Shown here: piece after piece, positions 841-58,952 of the stretch
Numbering within the stretch: position 1 is the first letter of the stretch
Layout of the letters: each line of letters opens with the position of its first letter
DNA from: an uncultured Candidatus Saccharibacteria bacterium
Lineage (GTDB): Bacteria > Patescibacteriota > Minisyncoccia > Spechtbacterales > HO2-43-30
Assembly: GCA_964374025.1 (NCBI GenBank)
Contig: CAYJWU010000001.1
Location: 1 to 63,450 of the forward strand
Direction: 5' to 3'
DNA: 63,450 nucleotides
Position numbers and translations under genes: made by a program
The notes under the pieces: model-generated
The model's database searches: none
What the model was told of the DNA's origin: nothing
Seen by the model: the letters and a program-made list of their open reading frames with translations, nothing else

Positions 841-3480
841 TTACTGCCCGTGGCACTTTTTATATTTCTTCCCCGACCCGCAGTAACAGGGGTCGTTGCG
901 GCCTATAGTTGCGCGCGGAGATGATACATTTTGCTCCATGGGCATTTGCGGCGTTTCTTTTAGCTCCACCCTAAATACCGTAAGCACAACTTGGGTCTGC
1001 CAAGCGCCGAGCAGCCGCTCAAACATCGCGAGACCCTCGCGCTTATATTCAACAAGCGGATCCTTCTGGCCGTACGCGCGCAGGCGCACGCTGTCGCGCA
1101 AACTTTCCATTGTCTCCAGATGATCCATCCAAAGCACATCAAGCGTACGGAGCATTATAAACTTTTCAAGCTCCCGCATCCTTTTTACGCCCATCTTTTC
1201 CTCTTTCTCTTTATGCGTCTTGTTAGCTATATCAAGCACGGCGTCCAATAACTCCCGTTTTAAATCCTCTGGTTCTCCGGCTTTTTTTATAATTGCCAAA
1301 AAATTTGAATGAAAATCATCAGAAACAGAAAATATGCCCTTTGTATTTTCGAAAATTTCTTCTATGTTCCACTCGGCAGGGTGCCCGGCCGCGGTGTGGA
1401 AATTCACCATTCTTCGAAGTTCATCCTCGATCATATCGATTAGCTGTGAGCTTTTAGCATTTAGCTTATAGCCGGATAGTATTTCTCTGCGTCTTTCATA
1501 AATAACCTGCCTCTGCTTATTCAGTACCTCATCGTAATCCAAAACATGCTTTCGGGTGTCGAAGTGAAATCCTTCTATCTTTCCCTGCGCCGACTCAATT
1601 GCCCCAGAAATCATACCGCTTGCGATCGCTTGATCTTCGGGTATTTTAAGGGTTGCCATAAGACCCTTGATCCTATCGCCCCCGAAAATGCGCATAATGT
1701 CGTCTTCGAGAGATACGAAAAACTGTGAGGCGCCCGGGTCTCCCTGACGGCCCGCGCGGCCCCTAAGCTGATTATCTATGCGGCGCGCCTCATGGCGCTC
1801 GGTGCCTAATACAAAAAGTCCCCCCACTTCGCGCACTTTCTTCGCTTCATCCGCAGAGGGCGGATTACCCCCCAAGATAATATCCACTCCTCTGCCGGCC
1901 ATATTTGTCGCGACAGTAACCGCGCCAAACTTCCCGGCTTGGGCAATAATCGCGCCTTCTCTCTCGTGATTTTTCGCGTTCAAAACCTCATGTTTTACTC
2001 CGGCCTTTTCTAAAAAGATAGAAACTACTTCATTATTTTGTATGCTTGTTGTTCCGATAAGCACGGGCTGGCCAACTTTATTGCGTTTTTTTACCTCCCC
2101 CACAATTGCCTGCATCTTTCCGCGGGCGGTTCTAAATACCAAGTCCGGCTCATTTTTGCGGATCATGGGTTTATTTGTGGGAATAGATACAACTTCCAAT
2201 TTATATACCTTGTCGAGCTCTTCGGCAGAAGTCATGGCAGTTCCCGTCATACCGCTAAGCTTCTTGTACATTCTGAAATAATTTTGAAAAGTAATAGAAG
2301 CAAGCGTTCTTGATTCCTTTTGCACCTCCAACATCTCTTTCGCTTCAAGCGCCTGATGGAGTCCCTCGGAATATCGCCGCCCCGGCATCAGACGGCCGGT
2401 AAATTCATCTACAATTATAACCTCCCCTCCGTCAGCTGACGGATTCACGACATAATCCCTGTCTTTTTGGAACAAAACTTTCGCGCGCAACGCCTGCTCA
2501 AGCTGATGAACATATCTTATGCCCCCACCCTTTGCCTGATCGTAGATATTTTCTATTCCAAGGATTTTCTCGAGTTTCGCGATTCCCTCTTCCGTAATTG
2601 ACACTGTCTTCATTTTTTCATCTATATTGTAATCTGGCCCTTCTTGAAGCTGGGGCACAATGCGGGAAAAAGTTTTGTAAAGCGTGGTTGATTCTTCGTC
2701 CGGAGCAGAAATTATAAGCGGGGTGCGCGCCTCATCTATAAGGATAGAGTCCACCTCGTCAACTATCGCGAAATTAAAATCCCTCTGTACACGCTCGCCA
2801 AGCGAATACACTAGATTGTCTCGTAAATAATCAAAGCCAAACTCATTGTTAGTCCCGTATGTTACGTCCGCGGCATATGCTTCTTTGCGGGTACAGGGAC
2901 GCAGATAACTTTCTTGTACCTCAAAGGCGCCTTTTGTATCCCGCTCCTCATCCTTTTTTTCGTTTTTGTACGCAGAGTCATACAGATACGCCGCATCGTG
3001 CTTTATGCAAGCCACGCTCAAAGCAAGCGCGTCGTAAATCTGCCCCATCCACACCGCGTCTCTTTTGGCCAGATAATCGTTGACGGTGACTACATGCACG
3101 CCCCTACCGGTCAGGGCATTGAGATAGACCGGAGCGGTTGCCGCAAGAGTCTTGCCTTCTCCTGTCCTCATCTCCGCGATTTTGCCCTGATGCAGGACAA
3201 TGCCGCCCATAAGCTGAACATCAAAATGTCTCTGGCCAAGCGTGCGCTTTGATGCCTCCCGCACAAGCGCGAACGCCTCGGGCAAAACATCCTCCAGTGT
3301 AACGGGGTCTGACCCCGTTACATTTATTCGGTTTTTAAGTTCCGCGGTCTTTTCTTTCATCTCGACGCCAGAAAGCCGCTCGAACTCGGGTTCGTGCGAA
3401 TTTATCTTCTCCACTGTGCTCTGCAACTTTTTCACCTCTCTCGCGTTGGGATCGCCTAAAATTTTAGAGAATATTGACAT
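841..3480 (-). CDS. secA: preprotein translocase ATPase SecA
   Basis: 879 aa. DEAD-like motor motifs ([38 protein letters not shown]) and the C-terminal SEC-C zinc motif [14 protein letters not shown]. Confidence 0.97.
1449..1472. repeat. tandem heptamer array (AGCTTTT AGCATTT AGCTTAT AGC) inside secA
   Basis: Read directly. Encodes GYKLNAKS in the secA frame. 18 of 19 nt match the murB array (1454-1472 vs 6031-6049). Confidence 0.6.
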
Positions 3481-5303: not shown

Positions 5304-6275
5304 TTAAAATCCTACATATTGTACCTCTTCTTCCGGTATTATGGCAAATTTATCGCGAATTCGCTGTTTCGCGAAATCTATAAGCATAGCAACATCTTCT
5401 GCCATAGCATCTTTATAGTTTACAAAAAAGTTTGGATGTTTCGCGCTTATCATCGCTCCGCCGATCCTATGGCCCTTTAATTCTGCTTCGTCTATAAAAC
5501 AAGCCATGGGAACTACCGGAAACGGATCGTTTTTTATTGAATTCCTGAACCTCGGATATCTATCAAATATCTCGCTTTTTATAAAATTTACATCTACTGC
5601 TTTAAATACGCTGCCGCAGGAGCCGTACTCAAGCGGATGACGCGCGGCGCGGTATTCTATTGTGTCTTTTGAAAATTTCCGCAGCGCGTTCGTATCTCCC
5701 TTCTCAAACTCAAGGGTTGCGGACAGAATAATGTAGTTTGGATTTTGTTTTCCGCCAAAGGCGGATCCGCCTCTGGCGGAAAAAATACTGTCCCTATACG
5801 CAAACTGGCACTTGTTATTGTTAAATTCTTTTATGTTGCCTTTGTTGTCTAAAAATCGCGCGGAGCTTAGAATATCTTTTATCTCTCCTCCGAATGCTCC
5901 CGCATTCCCCCGTATTGCCCCCCCAAAACTCCCCGGGATCCCGGAAGCCCACTCAAGGCCCTTGAGGCCGTTCTCGATGGAAATTCCAACCAATTCAGGC
6001 AAATCGATTCCGGCTTCGGCCTCTATTTTATTAGCTTTTAGCTTATAGCTTTTAGCTTTTAGCTTTACGACAAGGCCGTCGAATCCTTTGTCTGAAACCA
6101 AGATATTGCTCCCTCCGCCCAAGATAAAAAACGGCACCGCCTCCTTTCGCGCCCACGAAACCGCTTCGGCTATCTCATCCTCGCTTTTTGCTTCAACAAA
6201 ATACCTCGCCGGTCCGCCGATTTTATAAGTGGTATGTGAAACAAGCTTTATATTTTCTTGTATATCCAGCTTCAT
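5304..6275 (-). CDS. murB: UDP-N-acetylenolpyruvoylglucosamine reductase MurB
   Basis: HTTYKIGGPARYF, FILGGGSNIL, GIPGSFGGAIRGNAGAFG, YRDS and GSVFK motifs. Start placed at the ATG at 6275. The ORF extends to 6317 only by running into the palindrome. Confidence 0.9.
   Translation of the reverse strand: MKLDIQENIKLVSHTTYKIGGPARYFVEAKSEDEIAEAVSWARKEAVPFFILGGGSNILVSDKGFDGLVVKLKAKSYKLKANKIEAEAGIDLPELVGISIENGLKGLEWASGIPGSFGGAIRGNAGAFGGEIKDILSSARFLDNKGNIKEFNNNKCQFAYRDSIFSARGGSAFGGKQNPNYIILSATLEFEKGDTNALRKFSKDTIEYRAARHPLEYGSCGSVFKAVDVNFIKSEIFDRYPRFRNSIKNDPFPVVPMACFIDEAELKGHRIGGAMISAKHPNFFVNYKDAMAEDVAMLIDFAKQRIRDKFAIIPEEEVQYVGF
5749..5784. repeat. 36-bp near-perfect palindrome centred on GGATCC, in-frame in murB
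   Basis: TTTTCCGCCAAAGGCGGATCCGCCTCTGGCGGAAAA has one mismatched pair. It encodes FSARGGSAFGGK. Confidence 0.85.
6033..6067. repeat. five tandem heptamers (AGCTTTT AGCTTAT AGCTTTT AGCTTTT AGCTTTA) in-frame in murB
   Basis: Read directly. Encodes KLKAKSYKLKA. Confidence 0.85.
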
Positions 6276-6310
6276 GTCCAATAAAATACCACAAAACCGC
6301 CATGAAATCA

Positions 6311-6339
6311 ATTTCATCGGGGACTGTCCCCGATGAAAT
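6311..6339. repeat. 29-bp perfect palindrome ATTTCATCGGGGACTGTCCCCGATGAAAT
   Basis: Read directly. Abuts the transposase stop codon (6339-6341) and lies upstream of murB. Confidence 0.95.
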
Positions 6340-7079
6340 TAGTCTAATGCTATATCTTTCCAGTCCTCGTATGCTTGCGCCTTATGTTGCATCCAATCTT
6401 CTACCGCTTCCTTGCAGCCGTCTTCGCCCCCAAACAATTCCAAAAAGAGTTTTCGATTTGTAACCGATGGAAAATTTTTCTTCCCAATGTAATCTGGATA
6501 ACTAGACCACTTCCATGCGCTTAATTTTCGTTTCGCCTCCTTGAAATTTCTTAATCCTGACGTTTTCCATAACACCTCACGTAACTCTACGGGGTTTGTA
6601 TGAATATAGGAAAAAATCGTAACGAGTTGCTGATCTGTTTGTATATCTATTGCTTTATATCTATTTTGAAATAGAGACCCCACTCGCTCGTATTTTTTAT
6701 TAAAGTATACGACGTAACCGCCAAGCTTCCTCATAAATAACGAAATTCCACCGTCTTTGCGCTGGCGAAGCAAAAGATGAAAATGATTGGGCATCAAACA
6801 AAAAGCCAGAATATCCACAAGCAATTTTCTCTTCTTGGGTTCAACTTTTTTACGTTTCTTATACTCACTCGTACTGCCAGGGGCTATTTTATCGGGGACT
6901 GTCCCCGATAAAATAGCCCTGAAGTCTTGAGCTACTACATCCTCATCATTGAACTCATATAAATCGTGGATAAAACGATAGTAATCATTATTGCACATGA
7001 AGATATCGCGCTTCTCAACGCCTCGGTTGATCACGTGATAAATATTATCCGTGCTTAAAACTATCGTTTTTCGAGCCAT
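6339..7079 (-). CDS. REP-associated / IS200-family tyrosine (Y1, HUH) transposase
   Basis: YHVINRGVEKRDIF strand, HUH motif MPNHFHLLL, catalytic Tyr motif SYIHTNPV. Start set at the ATG at 7079 (MARKTIVLS). The upstream extension to 7178 is just the palindrome read in frame. Confidence 0.85.
   Translation of the reverse strand: MARKTIVLSTDNIYHVINRGVEKRDIFMCNNDYYRFIHDLYEFNDEDVVAQDFRAILSGTVPDKIAPGSTSEYKKRKKVEPKKRKLLVDILAFCLMPNHFHLLLRQRKDGGISLFMRKLGGYVVYFNKKYERVGSLFQNRYKAIDIQTDQQLVTIFSYIHTNPVELREVLWKTSGLRNFKEAKRKLSAWKWSSYPDYIGKKNFPSVTNRKLFLELFGGEDGCKEAVEDWMQHKAQAYEDWKDIALD
6881..6919. repeat. 39-bp perfect palindrome GGGCTATTTTATCGGGGACTGTCCCCGATAAAATAGCCC inside the transposase ORF
   Basis: Read directly. 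Exactly 13 codons, translated as RAILSGTVPDKIAPG. Confidence 0.95.
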
Positions 7080-7096
7080 AAATCTTTTTTTCCTTT

Positions 7097-7123
7097 TTTT
7101 ATCGGGGACTGTCCCCGATAAAA
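7097..7123. repeat. 27-bp perfect palindrome TTTTATCGGGGACTGTCCCCGATAAAA
   Basis: Read directly. Lies 18 nt upstream of the transposase ATG. Confidence 0.95.
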
Positions 7124-7164
7124 TTAATATAGCATAGTATTTGAAAATAAAAAGAGCGGAATAT

Positions 7165-7962
7165 TTACTCCGCTCCAATCCTCGACCACTCCGGGCCCCA
7201 GAGGTAATGCCCCGCCTGAATCAAGCAAAAAACTTGACCCGGCAGCATTTCTTCGTGCTTTTCTCTGATAAAATTATACACTGCTCCCGGATCGCAGTCT
7301 AAGAAAAAAACTTCGCCCTCGTTTTCCTGTGCGTCAGGATGCCTGCGCGTGATTTCGCCCGATGATATCGAAACCTCAGCCAAAAAATTTAATTCGTTAG
7401 CCATCCTTCGCTCAAGTCTCTGTGAAATACCCAAAAGAAAAAGGTTTAGAACCTCATCGCATTCAATTGCAAGCTCCTCCCAAAACTCCCTCTTTGCATG
7501 GCTGAATGGGTTATTTTCATCTAAAATTCCTCCCGGAAGAGCAATAATGCCAGGAAAATCCACAGTTTGAGATCTTATGTTCATCACAATCTTGGAGTCG
7601 GATGTTATCACAACAGCACTCATCCCCACCCCCATGGGAAGATCTTCTATTCCCCAGTCAAACGCCTCGGCAAATTCTTTGCGGCATATATCATATAATG
7701 CGTATGTAAGGGGACCGAGCGCAAGCATAAGTATGTTCCCATCCATTTTGGATCGCTCCAAGGATAGATGCCTCGCTTCACCATCAAAAAGATTTGGGTT
7801 TGTCTCCTTGCGAGTAAGAAATCGGGCGAGCGCAACAGTCCTCATTTCCTCTGTTACACTTGGAGCAAGCCCATCCTCAAAATTAACCATGACACCGTCC
7901 TCGTCCCACACCCCCCTAGTCAAAATATTTACGCTAGAAGCCACCAAACCCATCAGGTCCAT
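7165..7962 (-). CDS. Nudix-family hydrolase
   Basis: 265 aa. Nudix-box-like PGGILDENNPFSHAKREFWEELAIE. Confidence 0.6.
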   Translation of the reverse strand: MDLMGLVASSVNILTRGVWDEDGVMVNFEDGLAPSVTEEMRTVALARFLTRKETNPNLFDGEARHLSLERSKMDGNILMLALGPLTYALYDICRKEFAEAFDWGIEDLPMGVGMSAVVITSDSKIVMNIRSQTVDFPGIIALPGGILDENNPFSHAKREFWEELAIECDEVLNLFLLGISQRLERRMANELNFLAEVSISSGEITRRHPDAQENEGEVFFLDCDPGAVYNFIREKHEEMLPGQVFCLIQAGHYLWGPEWSRIGAE

Positions 7963-10740: not shown

Positions 10741-12780
10741 TTATTGTTGATATCCGAGTGTCTCTGCTTTCGCAAAGGCCTCTTCCGCTCTCTCTTTATT
10801 TCCCGAAAGATCATAAGCGCGGCCTAAATACCAATGGGATTCGCCGAGGTCAGGCTCCAAAGCCACGGATTTACTAAGTAAATCAATCGCCTTTTCATAG
10901 TCATTAGTGAACATATATACCTGCGCAAGGAGCCGATATCCCTGCTGATTCGTTGGGCTCATATCTATCGCGTTTTTCAACACGTCTTCGGCCCTGGCAA
11001 TAAATCCCGGATCGTATTCCTGCGCGTTAGTATAAAAATCGCCAAGGATAACCTGATGCCGGAAATCGTAAGGATTTTCTTCGGCGGTTTTACGCATAAT
11101 TTTCTCTACCTCCATTACAAAATCCGCCGGAACCTTTTTTTCCGTGTCTTTTCTTAATAAATCAGAAATATTGATTGTGAAAAATTCAACGATCTGGCGA
11201 TTTCCGAGCGAGTTTAGGGATATGCTCTTTTTGTAAAGTTCTATGGTGTCTCGCGCATTAAGCCCTCCCCTGCTTATCTTAATACCCCAGTGCGCCGCCT
11301 GAAACGACTGAACGCCAAAATAAAAAAGGGAATAAACAAGAATGGCTCCAACTATCGCGGAAATTACGGGGGAAGGAGCGCGCAGCGCCGATTTTTCCCC
11401 ACTTTCTTTTTCTACATCTTTGAAATACGCGGCGCTGCCCGCGAACGCAAGCGTAAAGAAAAACATAATATAGGTGTTGAGCATATCAAAAACAAGCAGA
11501 TTCTGAACAAAATAAGCCAGAAGCGCTACTGTTAGCGCGCTTGGTAAAAACCAGTTTTGCGGCTCGCGGAAAATTTTTCGCCACAACATAAATAGTGCCG
11601 AAACAAATATGGAAAGGTACGCCATGAGCCCGATAATTCCGGAGTGTATTAAATTATCAAGAATAACATTATGGGTCCTATCAAACCAAACCTCTCCTCC
11701 GCATTTATCCAAAGGCAAACAGGGATTGAAATATTTTGTAAATACCGCGTTAAAATTTTCCGGGCCCCAGCCCAAAATAGGCCGTTCCTTCGCCCCTTGC
11801 CATGCCATATTCCAGACAACTTTTCTTGCGCCAATTGAAGCGCTCGAAAAAAATCCCGGGAGATTATCAATAATAGCTTTATTTTGTGTTAAAGTCCCCC
11901 AACTCACAATACTGCCGAATAATATTCCTGCCGCAAAAATTGAGATAGCGATCGCACGGGCGAATTTCACTTTTTTTGCGAAAAACAGCCAGGCAAGAAA
12001 GAAAATCAGGAAACCGCCGAACATGGACAAAAACGCGCCGTGAGCAGTCGAGAAAAATACGGAAAGTATAAGCAATGCAATCCCAATGCCATAAAGCGCC
12101 TGTTTTTGCAGCACGCGCTCTTTGTAAAAAAGCCACATTCCAAAAAATATATTAAAAAGCAAATAGGCCGACATAAAGCTGGAGTTGCCTATGGTAGAGC
12201 CGTCCTTTGTGTCAAACGGTATAATTGATATTCCGATTTTTTGAAAAAGAAAAATAAGCGATACTATGGCGGCCGCAATAAACGAGGCGCTTAAAAGTTT
12301 CTTCCAATGAGATGCATCGCGGAACGTGGACGCAACAACAAGGAAAAACATAGCAAGATGTATCCAGTTTATAGTCCCTGCCATACGCTCAAGAGTGCTC
12401 CAAAAACTGCGCTCAAGGTTTATCCCGGTAAAAGAGGTTACGACAGTAACAAGCAAAAAGGATCCGAGCGCGATAGATATCGCGTTCCAGCGCGGACGGA
12501 ATTGTTTATTTGATACAGCAAGAAGAAGCCACGCCGCGAAGATAATTTCGGTAAATATCCAAAAAAACACCGACTTCGGGACAACAAATGGGAAAAAAAA
12601 CGCGGGGTGCACGACAAGCGGCGCAAAGAGCGCGATATACGCGCCCCAGCGGATAATTTCAACCAAAAATAAAGCAAACCCCGCCTTTGTCCCGCTACGC
12701 GGGACTTCGGCGGGCAAGCCGCTTTCGGCCTTTCGTTTTTTACGGTTTGACTTTCTTCCCATCTTGAATGAGCGATTCAT
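10741..12780 (-). CDS. O-antigen ligase / Wzy_C-family polytopic membrane protein fused to C-terminal TPR repeats
   Basis: 679 aa with ~12 hydrophobic segments, a periplasmic-loop-like region and a C-terminal TPR region (YRLLAQVYMFTNDYEKAIDLLSKSVALEPD..HWYLGRAY). Confidence 0.65.
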   Translation of the reverse strand: MNRSFKMGRKSNRKKRKAESGLPAEVPRSGTKAGFALFLVEIIRWGAYIALFAPLVVHPAFFFPFVVPKSVFFWIFTEIIFAAWLLLAVSNKQFRPRWNAISIALGSFLLVTVVTSFTGINLERSFWSTLERMAGTINWIHLAMFFLVVASTFRDASHWKKLLSASFIAAAIVSLIFLFQKIGISIIPFDTKDGSTIGNSSFMSAYLLFNIFFGMWLFYKERVLQKQALYGIGIALLILSVFFSTAHGAFLSMFGGFLIFFLAWLFFAKKVKFARAIAISIFAAGILFGSIVSWGTLTQNKAIIDNLPGFFSSASIGARKVVWNMAWQGAKERPILGWGPENFNAVFTKYFNPCLPLDKCGGEVWFDRTHNVILDNLIHSGIIGLMAYLSIFVSALFMLWRKIFREPQNWFLPSALTVALLAYFVQNLLVFDMLNTYIMFFFTLAFAGSAAYFKDVEKESGEKSALRAPSPVISAIVGAILVYSLFYFGVQSFQAAHWGIKISRGGLNARDTIELYKKSISLNSLGNRQIVEFFTINISDLLRKDTEKKVPADFVMEVEKIMRKTAEENPYDFRHQVILGDFYTNAQEYDPGFIARAEDVLKNAIDMSPTNQQGYRLLAQVYMFTNDYEKAIDLLSKSVALEPDLGESHWYLGRAYDLSGNKERAEEAFAKAETLGYQQ
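12680..12714. repeat. composite GC-rich hairpin CCCGCC-TTT-GTCCCGC-TAC-GCGGGAC-TTC-GGCGGG inside the ligase-like ORF
   Basis: Read directly. Encodes part of LPAEVPRSGTKAGF. Same inner stem as 46300-46317. Confidence 0.8.
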
Positions 12781-13549
12781 TTATCCTATCCACTGACTTG
12801 TGCAACTTTAGATCTATGCCCTGTTCTTTCGCGAATTGTATAAAAGTCTTTATATCTTTGGGCAGACATGCTCCCGCGTAACCCCTGAATCCTCCATGCC
12901 AAACATCGAAATGGCTATCGTTTATGCGCTTGTCGTACGTAAATCCAAGTTTTACTCTAGAGTAATCAGCTCCGACTTTTTGGCATACATCATAAATCTG
13001 ATTTGCGAAAACCACTTTGTGCGCGTAATAGGTATTGAGCATATACTTTATAATCTCTGCCTCAATGGCCGGTAAAATCAAACTTTGCGCGCGAGGCAAT
13101 AGGGGCATAATTTTTTCTGCTAGTTTTTTGGTTTGCGAATTTGTGTACCCTAAAATCTGTTTGTCCGGATACGCGAAATCCTCTTTCGCGTATGCCGCTG
13201 TCAAAAATTCAGGATTGAAAAGAATTTTTATTTTTGGAAACTTTTTATGGAAATAATCTGTTGTGCCGGGAGGGATTGTGGATTTTATCAGCGCAATTCT
13301 CCCCTGGGGAATTTTCGCGAGATTTTCATCTATCGCGGAAATATCCGCTCCGCGATACACACCGGGTTTTGAGGTTTTTGCGTAAGGAGTAGGCAAGCAA
13401 AGAAAAATACACGGCTGCGCCAGAACCTCTTCTAATGTATTTGGGGTTTGCACATACTTATCCCAAATTTTCGCCTCTTTGTAATGGTGTTTTACGGCGC
13501 TGCCGACATAGCCCGCGCCTATGATGCCAAGTTCGCTGTGTTTAAACAT
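12740..13549 (-). CDS. short UDP-glucose/GDP-mannose dehydrogenase-family protein lacking the C-terminal domain
   Basis: N-terminal GIIGAGYVGS Rossmann motif and catalytic-Cys context GYAGACLPKD. Only 269 aa. Its 3' end overlaps the next gene by 41 nt. Confidence 0.65.
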   Translation of the reverse strand: MFKHSELGIIGAGYVGSAVKHHYKEAKIWDKYVQTPNTLEEVLAQPCIFLCLPTPYAKTSKPGVYRGADISAIDENLAKIPQGRIALIKSTIPPGTTDYFHKKFPKIKILFNPEFLTAAYAKEDFAYPDKQILGYTNSQTKKLAEKIMPLLPRAQSLILPAIEAEIIKYMLNTYYAHKVVFANQIYDVCQKVGADYSRVKLGFTYDKRINDSHFDVWHGGFRGYAGACLPKDIKTFIQFAKEQGIDLKLHKSVDRINESLIQDGKKVKP

Positions 13550-56002: not shown

Positions 56003-56784
56003 AACCTTTTAAAAATATTTCTAAAAAAACCATACCACGGAGATAAAAGCGCCTTAAATTGTAAGTCACTAACAGCGTTGTTCAGAGGTACGCGCGGCAA
56101 TAAACGCGGATCGGAAGCCCTGGATACAATCCCGGTTTTTGAAGTAAAGGCAATTTTAAAACCCAATTCCTCTAACGCCCTAACAACGGTTTTATTAACT
56201 TTTCCTCTTGGGTAGCAAAAAGAATCTACGGGTTTTGCGGTATATTCTTCGAGAATCCGTTTTGATTCTTTTATTTCGTACATTAATGCCTCGGCATCTA
56301 AATCTGGCAGGTTAGCATGCGTATGTCCATGCGCCCCAAACTCAATACCGCGCCTGGCTAGGGATTGAATCTCGTCGGCATTCATCATGGGAAGTACGGG
56401 CACATCTTTCCTGCAAAAATTATTCACCCCGCCGATATGCGCGGTGGAAACAAAGATTACTGCCGAAAAATTATATTCGCCGAGTTTATCCGCTGCCGCG
56501 ATGTTATTCTTATATCCATCATCAAAAGTAATAAGAACTTTTCTCGCATCTTTTTTAAAACTCTTATTCATTAAATAATTTTTGAATTCATTAAGCGATA
56601 AGGTCGTGTAGCCTTGCGAATGAAAATATTTTATGAATCTTTGAAATCTGTCGCTCGAAATTGAAATAACTGACCCGCTCTCATCCACTGAATGAAAAAA
56701 CAAAACAGGCAACCCTGCTCGTGGAAAAAATTTATGGAGCAAGCATATAAGCAGGAACAACGCGGGTTTTAAAAAATGTATCAT
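55999..56784 (-). CDS. polysaccharide deacetylase (NodB homology domain)
   Basis: LITFDDGYKNN and GAHGHTH. Confidence 0.85.
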   Translation of the reverse strand: MIHFLKPALFLLICLLHKFFPRAGLPVLFFHSVDESGSVISISSDRFQRFIKYFHSQGYTTLSLNEFKNYLMNKSFKKDARKVLITFDDGYKNNIAAADKLGEYNFSAVIFVSTAHIGGVNNFCRKDVPVLPMMNADEIQSLARRGIEFGAHGHTHANLPDLDAEALMYEIKESKRILEEYTAKPVDSFCYPRGKVNKTVVRALEELGFKIAFTSKTGIVSRASDPRLLPRVPLNNAVSDLQFKALLSPWYGFFRNIFKRL

Positions 56785-58952
56785 TTTTCGAATAAATTAA
56801 TGTGCTCGCTCGCCACATCGGCAAAACTTCTTGTCGTATCCATGTTCATAATTACATTCTCATAATCCTGCCACTTTTTTGCGTCTAATAGAAAAAGAAT
56901 AGCGAAAATCAATTCTTTTTTATCCTTGGGATTAAAAGTCATAATGTTAGCCAAAACATTCTCCGGCAAACCGTTCTCTCTTGTGGCGATAACCGGAGTT
57001 CCCGCGGCACAGCTTTCAAGCACAAGATTTGGAGTAACCTCTGACAGCGACGGCACAACAACGAGCCAGCTCCGTTTAATTTCCCGGATAAGAACATCTC
57101 GGGAAAGCGCCCCCACCATTAAAACGTCGTCTTTCAGTCCGAGTTCATATATCGCTTTGTTCAATTCCCGCGCTTCGGGCCCATCGCCAATAATTTTTAA
57201 TGTTATTTTTGACTTCGCGAATCTTTTTACTTCTTTAAAAGCATGCAGCAAAAAGTTTATGTTCTTCAACTTGAGAAGTCTCCCTGCGTATAGAAGTACA
57301 AGGTTTTCTGGAAAACTTCTCTCCCTTTTGTCTATTTCGGGATACGAATTTTCTATGACATGTATTCTACGGCCGTTTAACCCGTAGTAACGAATATACA
57401 ATTCCTTCAAAAAACTAGAGGTAAATATTACAAAATTGCAGCGCCTGAACAAAACCCTGAGGATTCCAAAAATTATTTTCTCTCTTTTGGACTTCTTATA
57501 CGCCTCATAAAACAATCTAAGCGGCGCGTCTGTTCTGCCGCGCTCTACCGCTCTTTCCCAAAGAAAATCACCGCCCACTCTTAGGGCTAATTTTTTACCG
57601 CGCAATTTAGCGGCAAGAAAGGCTGGGAGAAGGATTTTGGGCGAGGAGCTTAGGGCATAACAGATTTCGAAATTTCGTAGAGATAAAAATATTTTTCTAA
57701 ACGAGCAAGCCTGCCTTCCGCTTATAACATCGGCTTCATACCCCCTTCTTTTAAGTTCCGACAAAAGTTTCTCGGCATAATATGATGGTCCGCCGATATC
57801 CGGCGGAAATATGCTTGTGAGTAGCAATATTCTCGGGGAAGATATGCCTTTGTACATTGAACCAACCCTCGAGGCGATGTTATTCCACGAATATCCTGAA
57901 GCTTTTTTAACTCCCTCTCTAGCCAGCAAATCCGCGGTCTTGGAATTATCTAAAATAAATCGCAGGGCTTGAGCTAATGAACTCGCGTTGGCGGGAAGGG
58001 CCAATAATCCCGTCTTTTTGTCTTCAACTAATTCCGCGAGGCTCCCAACACTCGTTGCGATAACCGGAATCCCAGAAGCCATCGCTTCAATGGCCGTAAT
58101 CCCAAACCCTTCTGACAGCGATGGCATTACAAATACATCGGCTATGTGGTAATAATGCGGGATATCGTCGTGCCTGATTGCGCCTACGAATTGGACAGAA
58201 TCTATAACGGCGAGTTTCTCTGCCTGCCTCTCAAGATTTACGCGCTCACTGCCATTGCCTACTAAAACGAACTTGATATTCCGGCCCCCTTTTTTTAGAA
58301 TTGAAAGTGCTTCTATAAGATATTTATGCCCCTTAACCTTCTCTAGGCGCCCCACGCTCAAAATAGTAAACTCGCTTTTTATGTGGGGGGTTTCACCCCC
58401 CACATAAAAAAACTTTTTCAAATCAACTCCATTCGGTATTATTTCTATATTTTTAACGCCGAGTTTTCTAAACCCTTCGTAAACAGCCCGGCTTGAAGCA
58501 ATACACAGCCGCGCCCGCCTATATATTATGCGTGATGCCAGTTTTGAAATAGAATTGTTCCAGATAACGCTCTGCTCCGTGCCTATAAACGGCTTTCGTG
58601 TAATCATTGATATAAAACATCCCATCAGCGCGCTTACAAAACCATGACAATGAAATATATCAACACAACGTACAAGCAAAAACGAACGAAAAGCAATAAA
58701 CGGAACCGCGCTTGCGATATATAAAATAGATGAGTGCGACAAATCCTGAAGCGAAAATAACGAAGTGCGATAAATCGTAACATTGTTTTTCTTTTCGAAA
58801 TTGGGAGCCCCATTCACGCGACCCGTTACGACAATAATACGTAAATCCTCCGGCTGACGCTCGGCAATATTTTGCGACCACTGCTCAAGTCCGCCGATAA
58901 CGGGAGGGTAATGCAATATGGGGTATAGAATCGTTAGCTTTTTTGAAAACAT
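56781..58952 (-). CDS. tandem double GT4 glycosyltransferase fusion
   Basis: 723 aa with two GT-B C-terminal motifs: EGFGITAIEAMASGIPVIAT and EVTPNLVLESCAAGTPVIAT. Confidence 0.8.
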   Translation of the reverse strand: MFSKKLTILYPILHYPPVIGGLEQWSQNIAERQPEDLRIIVVTGRVNGAPNFEKKNNVTIYRTSLFSLQDLSHSSILYIASAVPFIAFRSFLLVRCVDIFHCHGFVSALMGCFISMITRKPFIGTEQSVIWNNSISKLASRIIYRRARLCIASSRAVYEGFRKLGVKNIEIIPNGVDLKKFFYVGGETPHIKSEFTILSVGRLEKVKGHKYLIEALSILKKGGRNIKFVLVGNGSERVNLERQAEKLAVIDSVQFVGAIRHDDIPHYYHIADVFVMPSLSEGFGITAIEAMASGIPVIATSVGSLAELVEDKKTGLLALPANASSLAQALRFILDNSKTADLLAREGVKKASGYSWNNIASRVGSMYKGISSPRILLLTSIFPPDIGGPSYYAEKLLSELKRRGYEADVISGRQACSFRKIFLSLRNFEICYALSSSPKILLPAFLAAKLRGKKLALRVGGDFLWERAVERGRTDAPLRLFYEAYKKSKREKIIFGILRVLFRRCNFVIFTSSFLKELYIRYYGLNGRRIHVIENSYPEIDKRERSFPENLVLLYAGRLLKLKNINFLLHAFKEVKRFAKSKITLKIIGDGPEARELNKAIYELGLKDDVLMVGALSRDVLIREIKRSWLVVVPSLSEVTPNLVLESCAAGTPVIATRENGLPENVLANIMTFNPKDKKELIFAILFLLDAKKWQDYENVIMNMDTTRSFADVASEHINLFEK
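58381..58405. repeat. 25-nt perfect hairpin ATGTGGGGGGT-TTC-ACCCCCCACAT inside the double-GT4 ORF
   Basis: Read directly. Encodes VGGETPH in the inter-domain linker of the first GT module. Confidence 0.85.

What the first reader, a model, noticed from the sequence alone, without database searches (positions are those of the whole stretch)
6311..7123. Y1/HUH transposase gene bracketed by, and carrying in-frame, the same perfect palindrome (REPtron-like unit)
The core ATCGGGGAC-T-GTCCCCGAT occurs three times in this window and, as far as I can see, nowhere else in it.
- 6311-6339: a 29-bp perfect palindrome. It overlaps the first base of the transposase stop codon.
- 6881-6919: a 39-bp perfect palindrome.
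- 7097-7123: a 27-bp perfect palindrome, 18 nt upstream of the ATG at 7079.

The enclosed ORF has the Y1 transposase hallmarks: the YHVINRG strand, the HUH motif NHFHLL and the catalytic Tyr in SYIHTNP. IS200/IS605 TnpA and RayT enzymes act on exactly such ssDNA hairpins. rayT genes flanked by their cognate REPs are known as REPtrons (established).

The unusual part is the middle copy. It lies inside the transposase ORF, is exactly 13 codons long and keeps the frame (RAILSGTVPDKIAPG). It falls in the variable loop between the first strand and the HUH motif. The enzyme's presumed substrate hairpin therefore appears to have inserted into its own gene without inactivating it.
Basis: partly seen in the sequence, partly recalled or inferred. 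Interest (0 to 1): 0.8.

Follow-up and report, generated by a model that had tools for sequence, protein, structure and literature searches.

The report
Nuclease gene carrying its own hairpin
A small DNA-cutting enzyme gene from an ultra-small (Patescibacteria) bacterium has the same DNA hairpin just before it, inside its coding sequence and just after it; dozens of distant relatives share this three-hairpin layout, each with a different hairpin sequence, so it is a conserved, co-evolving design and not a one-off accident.

Summary
Three exact copies of ATCGGGGACTGTCCCCGAT sit in perfect palindromes at 6310-6340, 6881-6919 and 7097-7123. They bracket, and lie in frame within, an intact 246-aa Y1/HUH gene (7079..6339, minus strand).

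The middle copy is not a recent self-insertion.
- In 86 homologous loci (34-74% identity), 40 show the same upstream/internal/downstream trio and 23 more show two of the three.
- The hairpin sequence differs from locus to locus, but the internal copy matches its own flanks (0.89 arm identity against 0.35 to other loci).
- It always lies in the same loop, which is predicted disordered.
- Close relatives show compensatory changes in all three copies.

Further copies away from the gene are rare: 9 in 450 kb. There is no GTAG guide, and the NCBIfam RayT model scores below its cut-off. The unit is therefore not a classical REPtron.

Protein motifs and the GGGGWSAS-type core place it nearest TnpAY1 subclass 2.1 (TIRYT). 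In-frame REPs inside tnpAREP genes are already described for subclass 2.4, at a different position.

The most likely mechanism is that the hairpins are the enzyme's cognate single-stranded DNA sites and are kept identical by copy-correction.

Verdict: a new variant of a known kind, of moderately high interest.

The parts
7097..7123 (.). Upstream copy of the cognate hairpin. It is a 27-bp perfect palindrome, TTTTATCGGGGAC-N-GTCCCCGATAAAA, with 17 nt between it and the ATG.
   Evidence: ssDNA fold -12 kcal/mol, z -5.6. It has no T tail, so it is not terminator-like.
6339..7079 (-). Y1/HUH nuclease gene (246 aa from the ATG at 7079; the stop codon is 6339-6341). It is of the RAYT/TIRYT type (TnpAY1 class 2, subclass 2.1-like).
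   Evidence: Pfam Y1_Tnp 38.2 bits. NCBIfam REP_Tyr_transpos 45.9 bits, below the cut-off of 80. AF2 model pLDDT 81.6. Foldseek best match 4er8_A. 7364 homologues were found, and all named ones are Patescibacteria.
6881..6919 (.). Internal, in-frame copy of the hairpin. It is a 39-bp perfect palindrome with stem 19 and covers codons R54-P67 (AILSGTVPDKIA).
   Evidence: ssDNA fold -20.7 kcal/mol, z -8.7. The homologous position carries the locus-specific hairpin in 47 of 86 relatives. Compensatory changes appear on a codon-anchored alignment.
6846..6932 (-). Coding region for residues 50-78, the loop predicted to be disordered between helix alpha1 (30-42) and strand beta2 (88-95). It contains the hairpin-encoded peptide and a K/R-rich stretch.
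   Evidence: pLDDT is below 50 for residues 50-78. The loop is about 29 aa longer than in a non-Patescibacteria relative. Loop length is the same in relatives with and without the hairpin.
6777..6788 (-). HUH motif, N98-H99-F100-H101.
   Evidence: Invariant in alignment A1 and intact in all 86 loci.
6606..6608 (-). Catalytic tyrosine Y158, in the class-2 signature YIHTNP (Y---NP).
   Evidence: Invariant. The motif class is taken from Quentin et al. 2018, Table 1.
6310..6340 (.). Downstream copy of the hairpin. It is a 31-bp perfect palindrome with stem 15 and overlaps two bases of the stop codon.
   Evidence: ssDNA fold -14.9 kcal/mol, z -7.7. In relatives the downstream copy abuts or overlaps the stop codon: its centre lies +8 to +26 nt past the end of the stop in most loci, and up to 11 nt inside the gene end in a few.
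3298..3322 (.). Dispersed sister-type hairpin, TGTAACGGGGTC-T-GACCCCGTTACA (stem 12). It lies in frame inside secA and encodes [10 protein letters not shown].
   Evidence: 17 nt are identical to the cognate hairpin of the sister Y1 loci L169/L170. Most SecA homologues have a shorter loop at this position.

Best explanation
This is one member of a large Patescibacteria family of domesticated-looking Y1/HUH single-strand DNA nucleases. The family is of the RAYT/TIRYT type and is closest to TnpAY1 subclass 2.1. Its conserved gene architecture carries the enzyme's cognate DNA hairpin three times: just upstream of the start codon, in frame in a disordered surface loop between helix alpha1 and strand beta2, and abutting the stop codon.

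Shown by the data:
- The trio recurs in about half of 86 divergent loci.
- The hairpin sequence differs between loci, but within each locus the three copies match.
- Hairpin sequence tracks the protein phylogeny.
- Stems are strictly Watson-Crick.
- The loop orientation flips freely.
- The reading frame through the hairpin varies, so the DNA structure is what is conserved, not the peptide.

Inferred:
- The hairpins extrude in single-stranded DNA (or as cruciforms) and are bound, and probably cleaved and rejoined, by the encoded enzyme.
- The three copies are kept identical by copy-correction between them. This could be enzyme-mediated hairpin replacement or short-tract gene conversion, with template switching perfecting and extending each palindrome.
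- The internal copy began as an insertion of the cognate hairpin into a permissive loop at the base of the Patescibacteria family, and has since co-evolved in place.

The role of the internal copy is not resolved. It may give a cis-regulatory benefit, such as self-limitation of the enzyme, or it may merely persist through the homogenising drive. I lean towards passive persistence with possible autoregulation.
For: **Enzyme identity.** Pfam match, AF2 model, Foldseek best matches 4er8 RayT and then IS608/ISDra2 TnpA, and HUH plus Tyr intact in 86 of 86 loci.

**Family-wide trio.** The classes are UID 40, U-D 16, UI- 4 and -ID 3 of 86 loci. Perfect palindromes occur at 6.6 per kb upstream, 3.2 per kb in the loop and 9.9 per kb downstream. 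The rest of the CDS has 0.14-0.26 per kb and the rest of the loci 0.47 per kb.

**Co-variation.**
- Arm identity of the internal copy to its own flank is 0.89, against 0.35 to other loci. The own flank is the best match in 34 of 38 loci.
- Protein identity correlates with hairpin identity: Spearman 0.26, with 0 of 1000 permutations reaching it.
- Close relatives show GGGGACAGTCCCC x3 (window, L168) and GGGGTCTGACCCC x3 (L169/L170). L167 has the asymmetric GGGGACAGACCCC at the internal and downstream positions and its reverse complement upstream.
- On an ungapped codon-anchored alignment, 5 of 19 pairs changed on both sides; 1 of 500 shuffles reached this.
- Two paralogues in one contig each have their own hairpin variant.

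**DNA-level constraint rather than peptide or RNA.**
- All three reading frames are used, and loop orientation varies.
- There are 44 compensated differences between copies against 23 isolated mismatches. G:T (5) is about equal to A:C (4).

**Link between this hairpin and this enzyme type across phyla.** The same 19-mer flanks, as dimers, Y1 homologues in Pseudoduganella, Thermoleophilia, Allosphingosinicella and Actinomycetes genomes. It also fits the GGGGWSAS TIR motif of TIRYTs (Di Nocera 2013).

**Ancient insertion.** The loop is about 29 aa longer than in the Pseudoduganella relative and in RayT.

**Hairpins can land in frame in other genes.** Examples are secA here and the DprA linker and a ComFC-like ORF in L106.
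Against: - No biochemical evidence: binding or cleavage of these hairpins by this protein is inferred from family knowledge only.
- 23 of 86 homologues have intact catalytic motifs but no detectable hairpin pair. The hairpins are therefore not obligatory for keeping the enzyme.
- No guide tetranucleotide or conserved cleavage motif was found next to the stems, unlike IS608 or E. coli RayT.
- Sequence similarity to solved Y1 enzymes is weak (E 0.0055-0.76).
- The homogenising mechanism is not identified. Recurrent re-insertion at one hot spot cannot be fully excluded for the distant loci.
- Perfect dyad symmetry is also what a dimeric double-stranded-DNA binding protein would select.
Confidence: 0.6

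Rival explanations
1. Recent, lineage-specific self-insertion. The substrate hairpin jumped once into this particular gene and happened to be tolerated.
For: The middle copy shares 27 nt exactly with the upstream copy. Cognate hairpins do land in frame in other genes. Relative to non-Patescibacteria relatives the loop is an insertion.
Against: Homologues at 34-74% identity have the segment at the same position and of the same length. In 47 of 86 it is encoded by their own palindrome. The close relatives align codon by codon without gaps and show compensatory substitutions.
Confidence: 0.03
2. RNA-level elements. On this reading the three palindromes act in the mRNA (5'-UTR translational control, an internal pause or processing site, 3' stabiliser or terminator) and have nothing to do with the enzyme's DNA activity.
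For: All three copies lie within or at the edges of the transcription unit. The upstream copy sits between a possible -10 box and the start codon, and the downstream copy abuts the stop codon.
Against: - None has a T tail, and the upstream gene has its own canonical terminator at 7176-7153.
- Stems are strictly Watson-Crick with no excess of G:T over A:C.
- Loop orientation flips between copies and loci, which changes the RNA loop.
- The same core flanks Y1 genes and is dispersed on both strands in other phyla.
Confidence: 0.1
3. Double-stranded operator sites. On this reading the palindromes are dyad-symmetric binding sites for a dimeric DNA-binding protein. That protein could be the Y1 protein's own C-terminal helical domain or a host regulator. 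Co-variation would then reflect operator-repressor co-evolution.
For: The dyad symmetry is perfect. The upstream copy lies in the promoter/5' region. Subclass 2.1 proteins are reported to carry HTH-like C-terminal domains. The apical G-rich arm is the most conserved part.
Against: - Stem length varies from 6 to 23 pairs, and each copy has private self-complementary extensions beyond the shared core. This fits hairpin formation, not half-site recognition.
- Copies inside the gene and at its 3' end are not where operators sit.
- Pfam finds no HTH domain in this protein.
Confidence: 0.1
4. Autonomous IS200-like insertion sequence. On this reading the flanking hairpins are simply the left and right ends of a mobile element, and the internal copy is incidental.
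For: The hairpins hug the ORF. Genomic neighbours differ completely between loci, with 157 Pfam families among 90 neighbours. Even 72-74% identical relatives sit in different contexts.
Against: - The Tyr motif is Y---NP, not the Y---Q of IS200 transposases.
- There are no near-identical duplicates: only 3 of 86 loci have a second copy, at about 40% identity.
- There is one copy in this 63-kb window and the same context in four samples.
- There is no TnpB partner, and the family is almost absent from viral contigs.
Confidence: 0.15

Closest known systems
TIRYT / TIRtron (Di Nocera et al. 2013, PMC3733652), equivalent to TnpAY1 subclass 2.1 (Quentin et al. 2018, PMC6006769) and Group 1 RAYT (Bertels et al. 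2017, PMC5581495)
   Same: - The protein motifs NHFH, FQ, YIHTNP and WSSY and the length of 246 aa fit the published subclass 2.1 signatures (NH[YF]H, FQ, Y[IV]HLNP, SS tail, median 238 aa).
- The gene is flanked by inverted or self-complementary repeats whose core GGGGACAG fits the published GGGGWSAS motif.
- The gene is low in copy number, and there are few dispersed repeats.
   Different: - A third copy lies in frame inside the gene, in a loop of about 30 aa that typical members lack.
- Each flank is a full perfect palindrome rather than one arm of a terminal inverted repeat.
- Pfam detects no HTH-like C-terminal domain.
- Patescibacteria were not covered by those surveys. Quentin et al. 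reported no REP-like structures for subclass 2.1.
REPtron: E. coli-type RayT/TnpAREP with flanking REPs or BIMEs (Nunvar 2010; Ton-Hoang 2012; Messing 2012, PDB 4er8)
   Same: It is the best structural match. It has the class-2 Y---NP motif. The gene is single-copy, is flanked by its cognate hairpins, and co-evolves with them.
   Different: - There is no GT[AG]G guide at the hairpin foot.
- The palindromes are perfect, not imperfect.
- There is no abundant dispersed REP/REPIN population: 0 further exact copies in 62 kb, and 9 in 450 kb around relatives.
- The NCBIfam equivalog scores below its cut-off.
TnpAY1 subclass 2.4, with REPs inserted in frame within tnpAREP (Quentin et al. 2018)
   Same: The cognate REP lies inside the enzyme's own gene without breaking the reading frame, in a peripheral variable region.
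   Different: - There the insertion lies between the HuH and Tyr motifs (beta3:alphaC). Here it lies before the HuH motif (alpha1-beta2).
- Those REPs are GTAG-tagged 'double-foot' REPs in Cyanobacteria and Bacteroidetes, with dispersed families.
- Fixed position, trio co-variation and compensatory evolution were not reported there.
Rickettsia palindromic elements (RPEs) and intragenic REPs (Ogata et al. 2000, from my own knowledge; Di Nocera 2013)
   Same: Palindromic repeats inserted in frame into loops or linkers of functional, even essential, genes. Here the examples are secA, a DprA linker, a ComFC-like ORF, and possibly murB and a glycosyltransferase linker.
   Different: RPEs are longer (about 100-150 bp) and CGTC-tagged, and have no known dedicated enzyme. 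Here the hairpins are 17-47 bp and are tied to a specific Y1 gene.
IS200/IS605 TnpA with subterminal left-end and right-end hairpins
   Same: Same HUH/Y1 fold, and hairpins at both ends of the gene.
   Different: It has the Y---Q motif, high copy number, imperfect hairpins with guide and cleavage tetranucleotides, and often TnpB. None of these is seen here.

Membership tests
Y1/HUH transposase superfamily (Pfam PF01797) | Profile match above the gathering threshold | tested here: met
   38.2 bits against a cut-off of 23, E 1.8e-9, residues 79-161
Y1/HUH transposase superfamily (Pfam PF01797) | HUH motif and a single catalytic Tyr on a C-terminal helix | tested here: met
   N98-H99-F100-H101 and Y158 are invariant in A1 and in all 86 loci
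Y1/HUH transposase superfamily (Pfam PF01797) | TnpA/RayT fold | tested here: met
   AF2 pLDDT 81.6. Foldseek gives 4er8_A at E 1.5e-5 with TMt 0.67, followed by 2a6o, 2vju and 2xm3
RAYT / TnpAREP (REPtron) | Class-2 Tyr motif Y---NP | tested here: met
   YIHTNP. Criterion taken from Quentin 2018
RAYT / TnpAREP (REPtron) | NCBIfam equivalog NF047646 above its cut-off | tested here: not met
   45.9 bits against a cut-off of 80
RAYT / TnpAREP (REPtron) | Gene flanked by its cognate palindromes | tested here: met
   Copies at 7097-7123 and 6310-6340. The same arrangement holds in 56 or more of 86 relatives
RAYT / TnpAREP (REPtron) | REP with a 5' GT[AG]G guide tetranucleotide at the foot of an imperfect hairpin | tested here: not met
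   No GTAG or CTAC next to any copy. Flanking positions carry 0.4 bit of information or less across loci. The stems are perfect
RAYT / TnpAREP (REPtron) | Cognate REP/REPIN family dispersed at high copy number in the genome | tested here: inconclusive
   There are 0 further exact copies and 1 variant (in secA) in the 63-kb window. Around relatives there are 9 copies in 450 kb. The whole genome is not available
TnpAY1 subclass 2.1 / TIRYT | Motifs NH[YF]H, FQ, Y[IV]HLNP and an SS tail, with a length of about 238 aa | tested here: met
   NHFH, LFQ, YIHTNP, WSSY, 246 aa. Relatives have NH[FY]H and Y[IV]H[LT]NP (compared with Table 1). The comparison is by motif only, because the authors' HMMs are not available
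TnpAY1 subclass 2.1 / TIRYT | Flanking inverted repeats carrying GGGGWSAS | tested here: met
   The core GGGGACAG is present in all three copies. Motif taken from Di Nocera 2013
TnpAY1 subclass 2.1 / TIRYT | C-terminal HTH-like domain (Bac_DnaA_C, HTH_23 or HTH_28) | tested here: not met
   Pfam reports only Y1_Tnp at E <= 0.01. The C-terminal 165-246 is modelled as helical but unassigned
IS200/IS605 insertion sequence | Tyr motif Y---Q, several near-identical copies, frequent TnpB partner | tested here: not met
   The motif is YIHTNP. There is one copy in the window. Second copies in 3 of 86 loci are only about 40% identical. No TnpB was found among 90 neighbours
TnpAY1 subclass 2.4 (in-gene REP) | REP insertion between the HuH and Tyr motifs; GTAG 'double-foot' REPs | tested here: not met
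   Here the insertion lies upstream of the HuH motif (residues 54-67 against HuH at 98-101), and there is no GTAG

The most novel reading that the evidence does not exclude
The in-gene hairpin is a working part of a self-contained three-hairpin module. On this reading the Y1 enzyme recognises all three copies in single-stranded DNA and itself catalyses hairpin replacement. That keeps the copies identical, flips their loops, and occasionally seeds copies into coding linkers of essential genes such as secA and dprA. The copy inside its own coding sequence would give DNA-level self-limitation or self-editing of the enzyme. That would make these tiny genomes a minimal natural system showing how RAYT-type enzymes move their hairpins.
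Probability: 0.2. Interest if true: 0.8.

Novelty: new variant of a known kind. Interest (0 to 1): 0.62.

Why it matters
What RAYT/TIRYT-type Y1 enzymes actually do, and how their palindromes are copied and co-evolve with them, is still unresolved more than ten years after their discovery.

This Patescibacteria family offers an unusually compact and informative case.
- It has three cognate hairpins within 0.8 kb and almost no background copies.
- Dozens of natural specificity swaps are already sampled.
- The internal copy must satisfy coding and hairpin constraints at once, which exposes compensatory evolution directly.

It gives concrete protein and hairpin pairs for in vitro tests of recognition and strand transfer.

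It also shows that cognate hairpins colonise disordered loops and linkers of essential genes in gene-dense genomes. This is a source of small lineage-specific protein insertions, and annotators and structure modellers should be aware of it.

Tried and rejected
- **Chance or artefact.** Rejected by the shuffle test and by four identical independent assemblies.
- **13-aa lineage-specific indel.** Rejected. Loop length is the same in relatives with a trio (median 28.5), with flanks only (28) and with no hairpin (25).
- **Intrinsic terminators.** The scan flags none of the three palindromes. It does flag a separate terminator after the upstream NUDIX gene.
- **Guide or cleavage motif next to the stems.** None was found.
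- **Sense-RNA wobble bias.** None was seen, but only 23 mismatches were available.
- **Conserved synteny or partner gene.** None was found.
- **Phage carriage.** Only 2 distant hits were found in the viral collection.
- **Link between hairpin loss and loss of catalytic residues.** There is none: all 86 proteins are intact.
- **Literature searches.** Searches for the core sequence and for REP or Y1 work in Patescibacteria found nothing relevant.
- **Source organism name.** The look-up returned no name.
- **Use of the genome-contig scan.** It did not recover the source genome, but it did reveal the cross-phylum distribution of the core.
Full report
**1. The observation**

The 19-nt core ATCGGGGACTGTCCCCGAT occurs at 6316, 6891 and 7101. 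It occurs nowhere else in the 63,450-nt window, even with 3 mismatches allowed, and none of 100 shuffles gave 3 hits.

Each copy is the centre of a perfect palindrome:
- 6310-6340: stem 15, 31 bp.
- 6881-6919: stem 19, 39 bp.
- 7097-7123: stem 13, 27 bp.

As single-stranded DNA they fold at -14.9, -20.7 and -12.0 kcal/mol, with z-scores of -7.7, -8.7 and -5.6.

The minus-strand ORF 7079..6339 (246 aa) reads through the middle palindrome. It matches Pfam Y1_Tnp at 38.2 bits against a cut-off of 23. It has NHFH at residues 98-101 and YIHTNP at 158-163.

Four independent public assemblies carry the same ORF and the same three palindromes without a single difference in this stretch.

**2. Context**

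The genes on the minus strand run NUDIX (7962..7165), the Y1 gene, murB (6275..5304) and a hibernation factor. The NUDIX gene has its own canonical terminator at 7176-7153. None of the three palindromes has a T tail.

All named homologues are from Patescibacteria. The best named SecA hit is Nealsonbacteria.

**3. The key result: the middle copy is not a private insertion**

In the protein alignment of the 31 homologues chosen from the closest hits, the hairpin-encoded peptide SGTVPD is matched at the same position by SGTVPD, TGTVPE, TGTDPG, TGSDPD and similar peptides. GTVP is GGGACNGTCCC and GSDP is GGGTCNGACCC. Both are palindromes.

I therefore fetched DNA for 80 metagenomic loci (34-50% identity) and for five close relatives (67-74% identity), and scanned them. 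With the window this makes 86 loci.

| Arrangement of the locus-specific palindrome | Loci |
|---|---|
| Upstream, in the loop, and downstream (UID) | 40 |
| Both flanks only (U-D) | 16 |
| Internal copy plus one flank (UI- 4, -ID 3) | 7 |
| No cognate pair detected | 23 |

At least two of the 'flanks only' loci are really trios with a diverged internal copy (L115, L167).

The palindrome differs completely between loci. Examples are ACGAGGCTAAGCCTCGT in L082, CGGAGGACAGTCCTCCG in L089, TACGGAGGTCCGTCCTCCGTA in L111 and ATGGACTTACGAAGTCCAT in L130.

Perfect palindromes (stem of 8 or more) are strongly concentrated at the three positions:

| Region | Palindromes per kb |
|---|---|
| 100 nt upstream | 6.6 |
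| Loop codons 45-85 | 3.2 |
| Around the stop codon | 9.9 |
| Rest of the coding sequence | 0.14-0.26 |
| Rest of the loci | 0.47 |

**4. Co-variation**

- The arm of the internal copy is 89% identical to the arm of its own flank, against 35% to the flanks of other loci. The own flank is the best match in 34 of 38 loci.
- Hairpin similarity rises with protein identity: Spearman 0.26, with 0 of 1000 label permutations reaching it.
- The close relatives form a small evolutionary series.
  - The window and L168 have GGGGACAGTCCCC three times.
  - L169 and L170 have GGGGTCTGACCCC three times.
  - L167 has the asymmetric GGGGACAGACCCC at the internal and downstream positions, and its reverse complement upstream.
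- A shared asymmetric state in all three copies argues for copying between sites, not three independent compensations.
- On an ungapped, codon-anchored alignment of the six sequences (not fitted to the structure), 5 of 19 pairs changed on both sides. Only 1 of 500 shuffles reached this. The covariation score was 0.186 against 0.105 (0 of 500), and the slid controls were lower.
- Between the window and L166 the peptide ILSGTVPDKI is kept, while synonymous changes in one arm are matched by synonymous changes in the other.
- One contig with two paralogues has a distinct hairpin variant around each.

**5. What is conserved is the DNA structure**

- The internal hairpin is read in all three frames in different loci, and the peptides are unrelated.
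- The asymmetric loop nucleotides show that copies are flipped relative to one another with no fixed rule. Upstream and downstream copies are flipped in 17 of 32 trios and in the same orientation in 10.
- Copies of one locus differ at 44 stem positions by a full base-pair exchange.
- Only 23 isolated mismatches occur in 169 copies, and G:T (5) is no more frequent than A:C (4). This speaks against selection acting only on the sense RNA.
- Each copy also has private self-complementary extensions beyond the shared core. Examples are GGGCTA/TAGCCC in the window's internal copy and a 23-pair stem upstream in L168. This fits local symmetrisation, for instance by template switching, or selection for stem length.

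**6. The protein and the loop**

- The AlphaFold model has a mean pLDDT of 81.6. Residues 50-78, which include the hairpin-encoded residues 54-67, are below 50. They lie between helix 30-42 and strand 88-95.
- The best structural match is E. coli TnpAREP bound to a REP hairpin (4er8_A, E 1.5e-5), followed by the IS608 and ISDra2 TnpA structures. Sequence-level similarity to these is weak.
- Loop length between the anchors N44 and R84 is the same in loci with a trio (median 28.5), with flanks only (28) and with no palindrome (25). Hairpin-less loci keep peptide remnants such as MDLRNPY and DIVSPY, which resemble MMDLRSPS from intact hairpins. The hairpin therefore decays in place and is not an indel.
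- Against a typical non-Patescibacteria relative (Pseudoduganella, L059) the loop is about 29 aa longer. The loop with its hairpin is thus an insertion at the base of the Patescibacteria family.

**7. Is it a REPtron?**

- Outside the gene ±200 nt, 449,923 nt of flanking sequence in hairpin-bearing loci hold only 9 further copies, allowing up to 2 mismatches.
- The window has no further exact copy, and one variant.
- No GT[AG]G or other conserved motif adjoins the stems. Only the apical 5' arm is G-rich (GGGG or GAGG).
- The NCBIfam RayT equivalog scores 45.9 bits against a cut-off of 80.
- The motifs NHFH, FQ, YIHTNP and WSSY and the length fit TnpAY1 subclass 2.1 in Table 1 of Quentin et al. 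2018. The authors equate that subclass with the TIRYTs of Di Nocera et al. 2013, whose flanking repeats share GGGGWSAS. The window core GGGGACAG fits this motif.
- The identical 19-mer is a dispersed, often dimeric, repeat in Sphingomonadales, Pseudoduganella, Actinomycetes, Vicinamibacteria, Bacillota and Atopobiaceae genomes. In five of the fetched 8-kb loci it flanks a Y1 homologue, as dimers on both sides where the ORF and both flanks lie within the stretch, with no internal copy.
- The hairpin and enzyme pairing therefore crosses phyla. The internal copy and the near-absence of dispersal are the Patescibacteria peculiarities.

**8. Mobility**

- Neighbouring genes are unrelated housekeeping genes: 157 Pfam families among 90 neighbours, the commonest in only 5.
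- Relatives at 72-74% identity lie in different contexts.
- There are no near-identical duplicates and no TnpB. Only two distant relatives occur in 2.9 million viral contigs.
- All 86 proteins keep the HUH motif and the Tyr.
- This pattern resembles a domesticated RAYT-like gene that relocates occasionally more than it resembles an active insertion sequence.

**9. Precedent**

Quentin et al. [quoted passage not shown] The general phenomenon is therefore known.

Within the library I could search, the following appear to be new:
- a family-wide, fixed-position internal copy ahead of the HuH motif;
- its concerted evolution with the flanks;
- its occurrence in Patescibacteria.

**10. Mechanism**

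- Shown: the architecture, the co-variation, the DNA-level constraint and the permissive disordered loop.
- From established knowledge of IS200/IS605 TnpA and RayT: such enzymes bind and cleave hairpins in single-stranded DNA.
- Inferred: the three palindromes are this enzyme's cognate sites, and they are homogenised by copy-correction, either enzyme-mediated or recombinational. The internal copy either persists passively through that drive or additionally limits the enzyme in cis.

The rival explanations are weighed in their own section. They are RNA elements, duplex operators, an autonomous insertion sequence, and a one-off insertion.

**11. Verdict**

This is a new variant of a known kind (RAYT/TIRYT). 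Interest is about 0.6: it is not unprecedented, but it is an unusually clean natural experiment on hairpin and enzyme co-evolution.

Noticed in passing
window 3298-3322 (inside secA, ORF 841..3480, minus strand): A perfect 25-bp palindrome, TGTAACGGGGTC-T-GACCCCGTTACA, lies in frame in secA and encodes [10 protein letters not shown]. 17 nt are identical to the cognate hairpin of the sister Y1 loci L169/L170, one base-pair flip away from this genome's trio. Most SecA homologues have a loop 4-5 aa shorter here. Some Patescibacteria SecAs carry their own odd inserts at the same spot, for example P0239 'EEYGGQSSVKLDE', where GGQSS is the peptide of the L089-type hairpin.
   Followed up: partly
window 5748-5783 (inside murB, ORF 6275..5304, minus strand): Two adjacent small hairpins, TCCGCC-AAA-GGCGGA and TCCGCC-TCT-GGCGGA, together form a 36-bp near-palindrome. 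They lie in frame and encode SARGGSAFGGK. They are unrelated in sequence to the Y1 hairpin. Whether this is an insertion relative to other MurB proteins was not tested.
   Followed up: partly
window 58376-58410 (inside the 723-aa ORF 56781..58952, minus strand): A 35-bp perfect palindrome with stem 16, TTTTTATGTGGGGGGT-TTC-ACCCCCCACATAAAAA, lies in frame at about residues 181-192. That position is between the N- and C-terminal halves of the first of two tandem GT4 glycosyltransferase units.
   Followed up: partly
window 13169-13193 (inside the 269-aa UDP-glucose dehydrogenase-like ORF 12740..13549, minus strand): A perfect palindrome with stem 10, ATACGCGAAA-TCCTC-TTTCGCGTAT, inside a coding region.
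   Followed up: no
L106 1234 and 2020; L108 2460: In a relative's contig, exact copies of the hairpin that flanks its Y1 gene lie in frame in other genes. One is in the linker between the DprA DNA_processg_A and winged-helix domains. One is in a ComFC-like phosphoribosyltransferase ORF. In L108 one lies near the end of a GH1 glycosidase ORF.
   Followed up: partly
L001-L081 (genome-contig hits to the 19-mer): The exact core ATCGGGGAC[A/T]GTCCCCGAT is a multi-copy repeat in unrelated phyla. Many hits come from one Sphingopyxis MAG, an Actinomycetes MAG, Bacillota AS10tlH2TH_376, Vicinamibacteria and Pseudoduganella species. It often occurs as close dimers with opposite loop nucleotide, and with genome-specific palindromic extensions such as tgcaa...ttgca. 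This suggests abundant REP-like families for subclass 2.1-type Y1 enzymes, which a 2018 survey scored as lacking REPs.
   Followed up: partly
window 7153-7176 (minus strand): A canonical intrinsic-terminator-like hairpin with a T tail lies directly after the NUDIX gene and just before the upstream Y1 hairpin. The Y1 unit therefore appears to be transcriptionally insulated from its upstream neighbour.
   Followed up: no
L094, L121, L161: Three of 86 loci carry a second, about 40% identical Y1 paralogue within 5-9 kb. In L121 each paralogue has its own related hairpin variant: TGTTGGAGGCTAAGCCTCCAACA against TGTGGGAGGCTCAGCCTCCCACA.
   Followed up: partly
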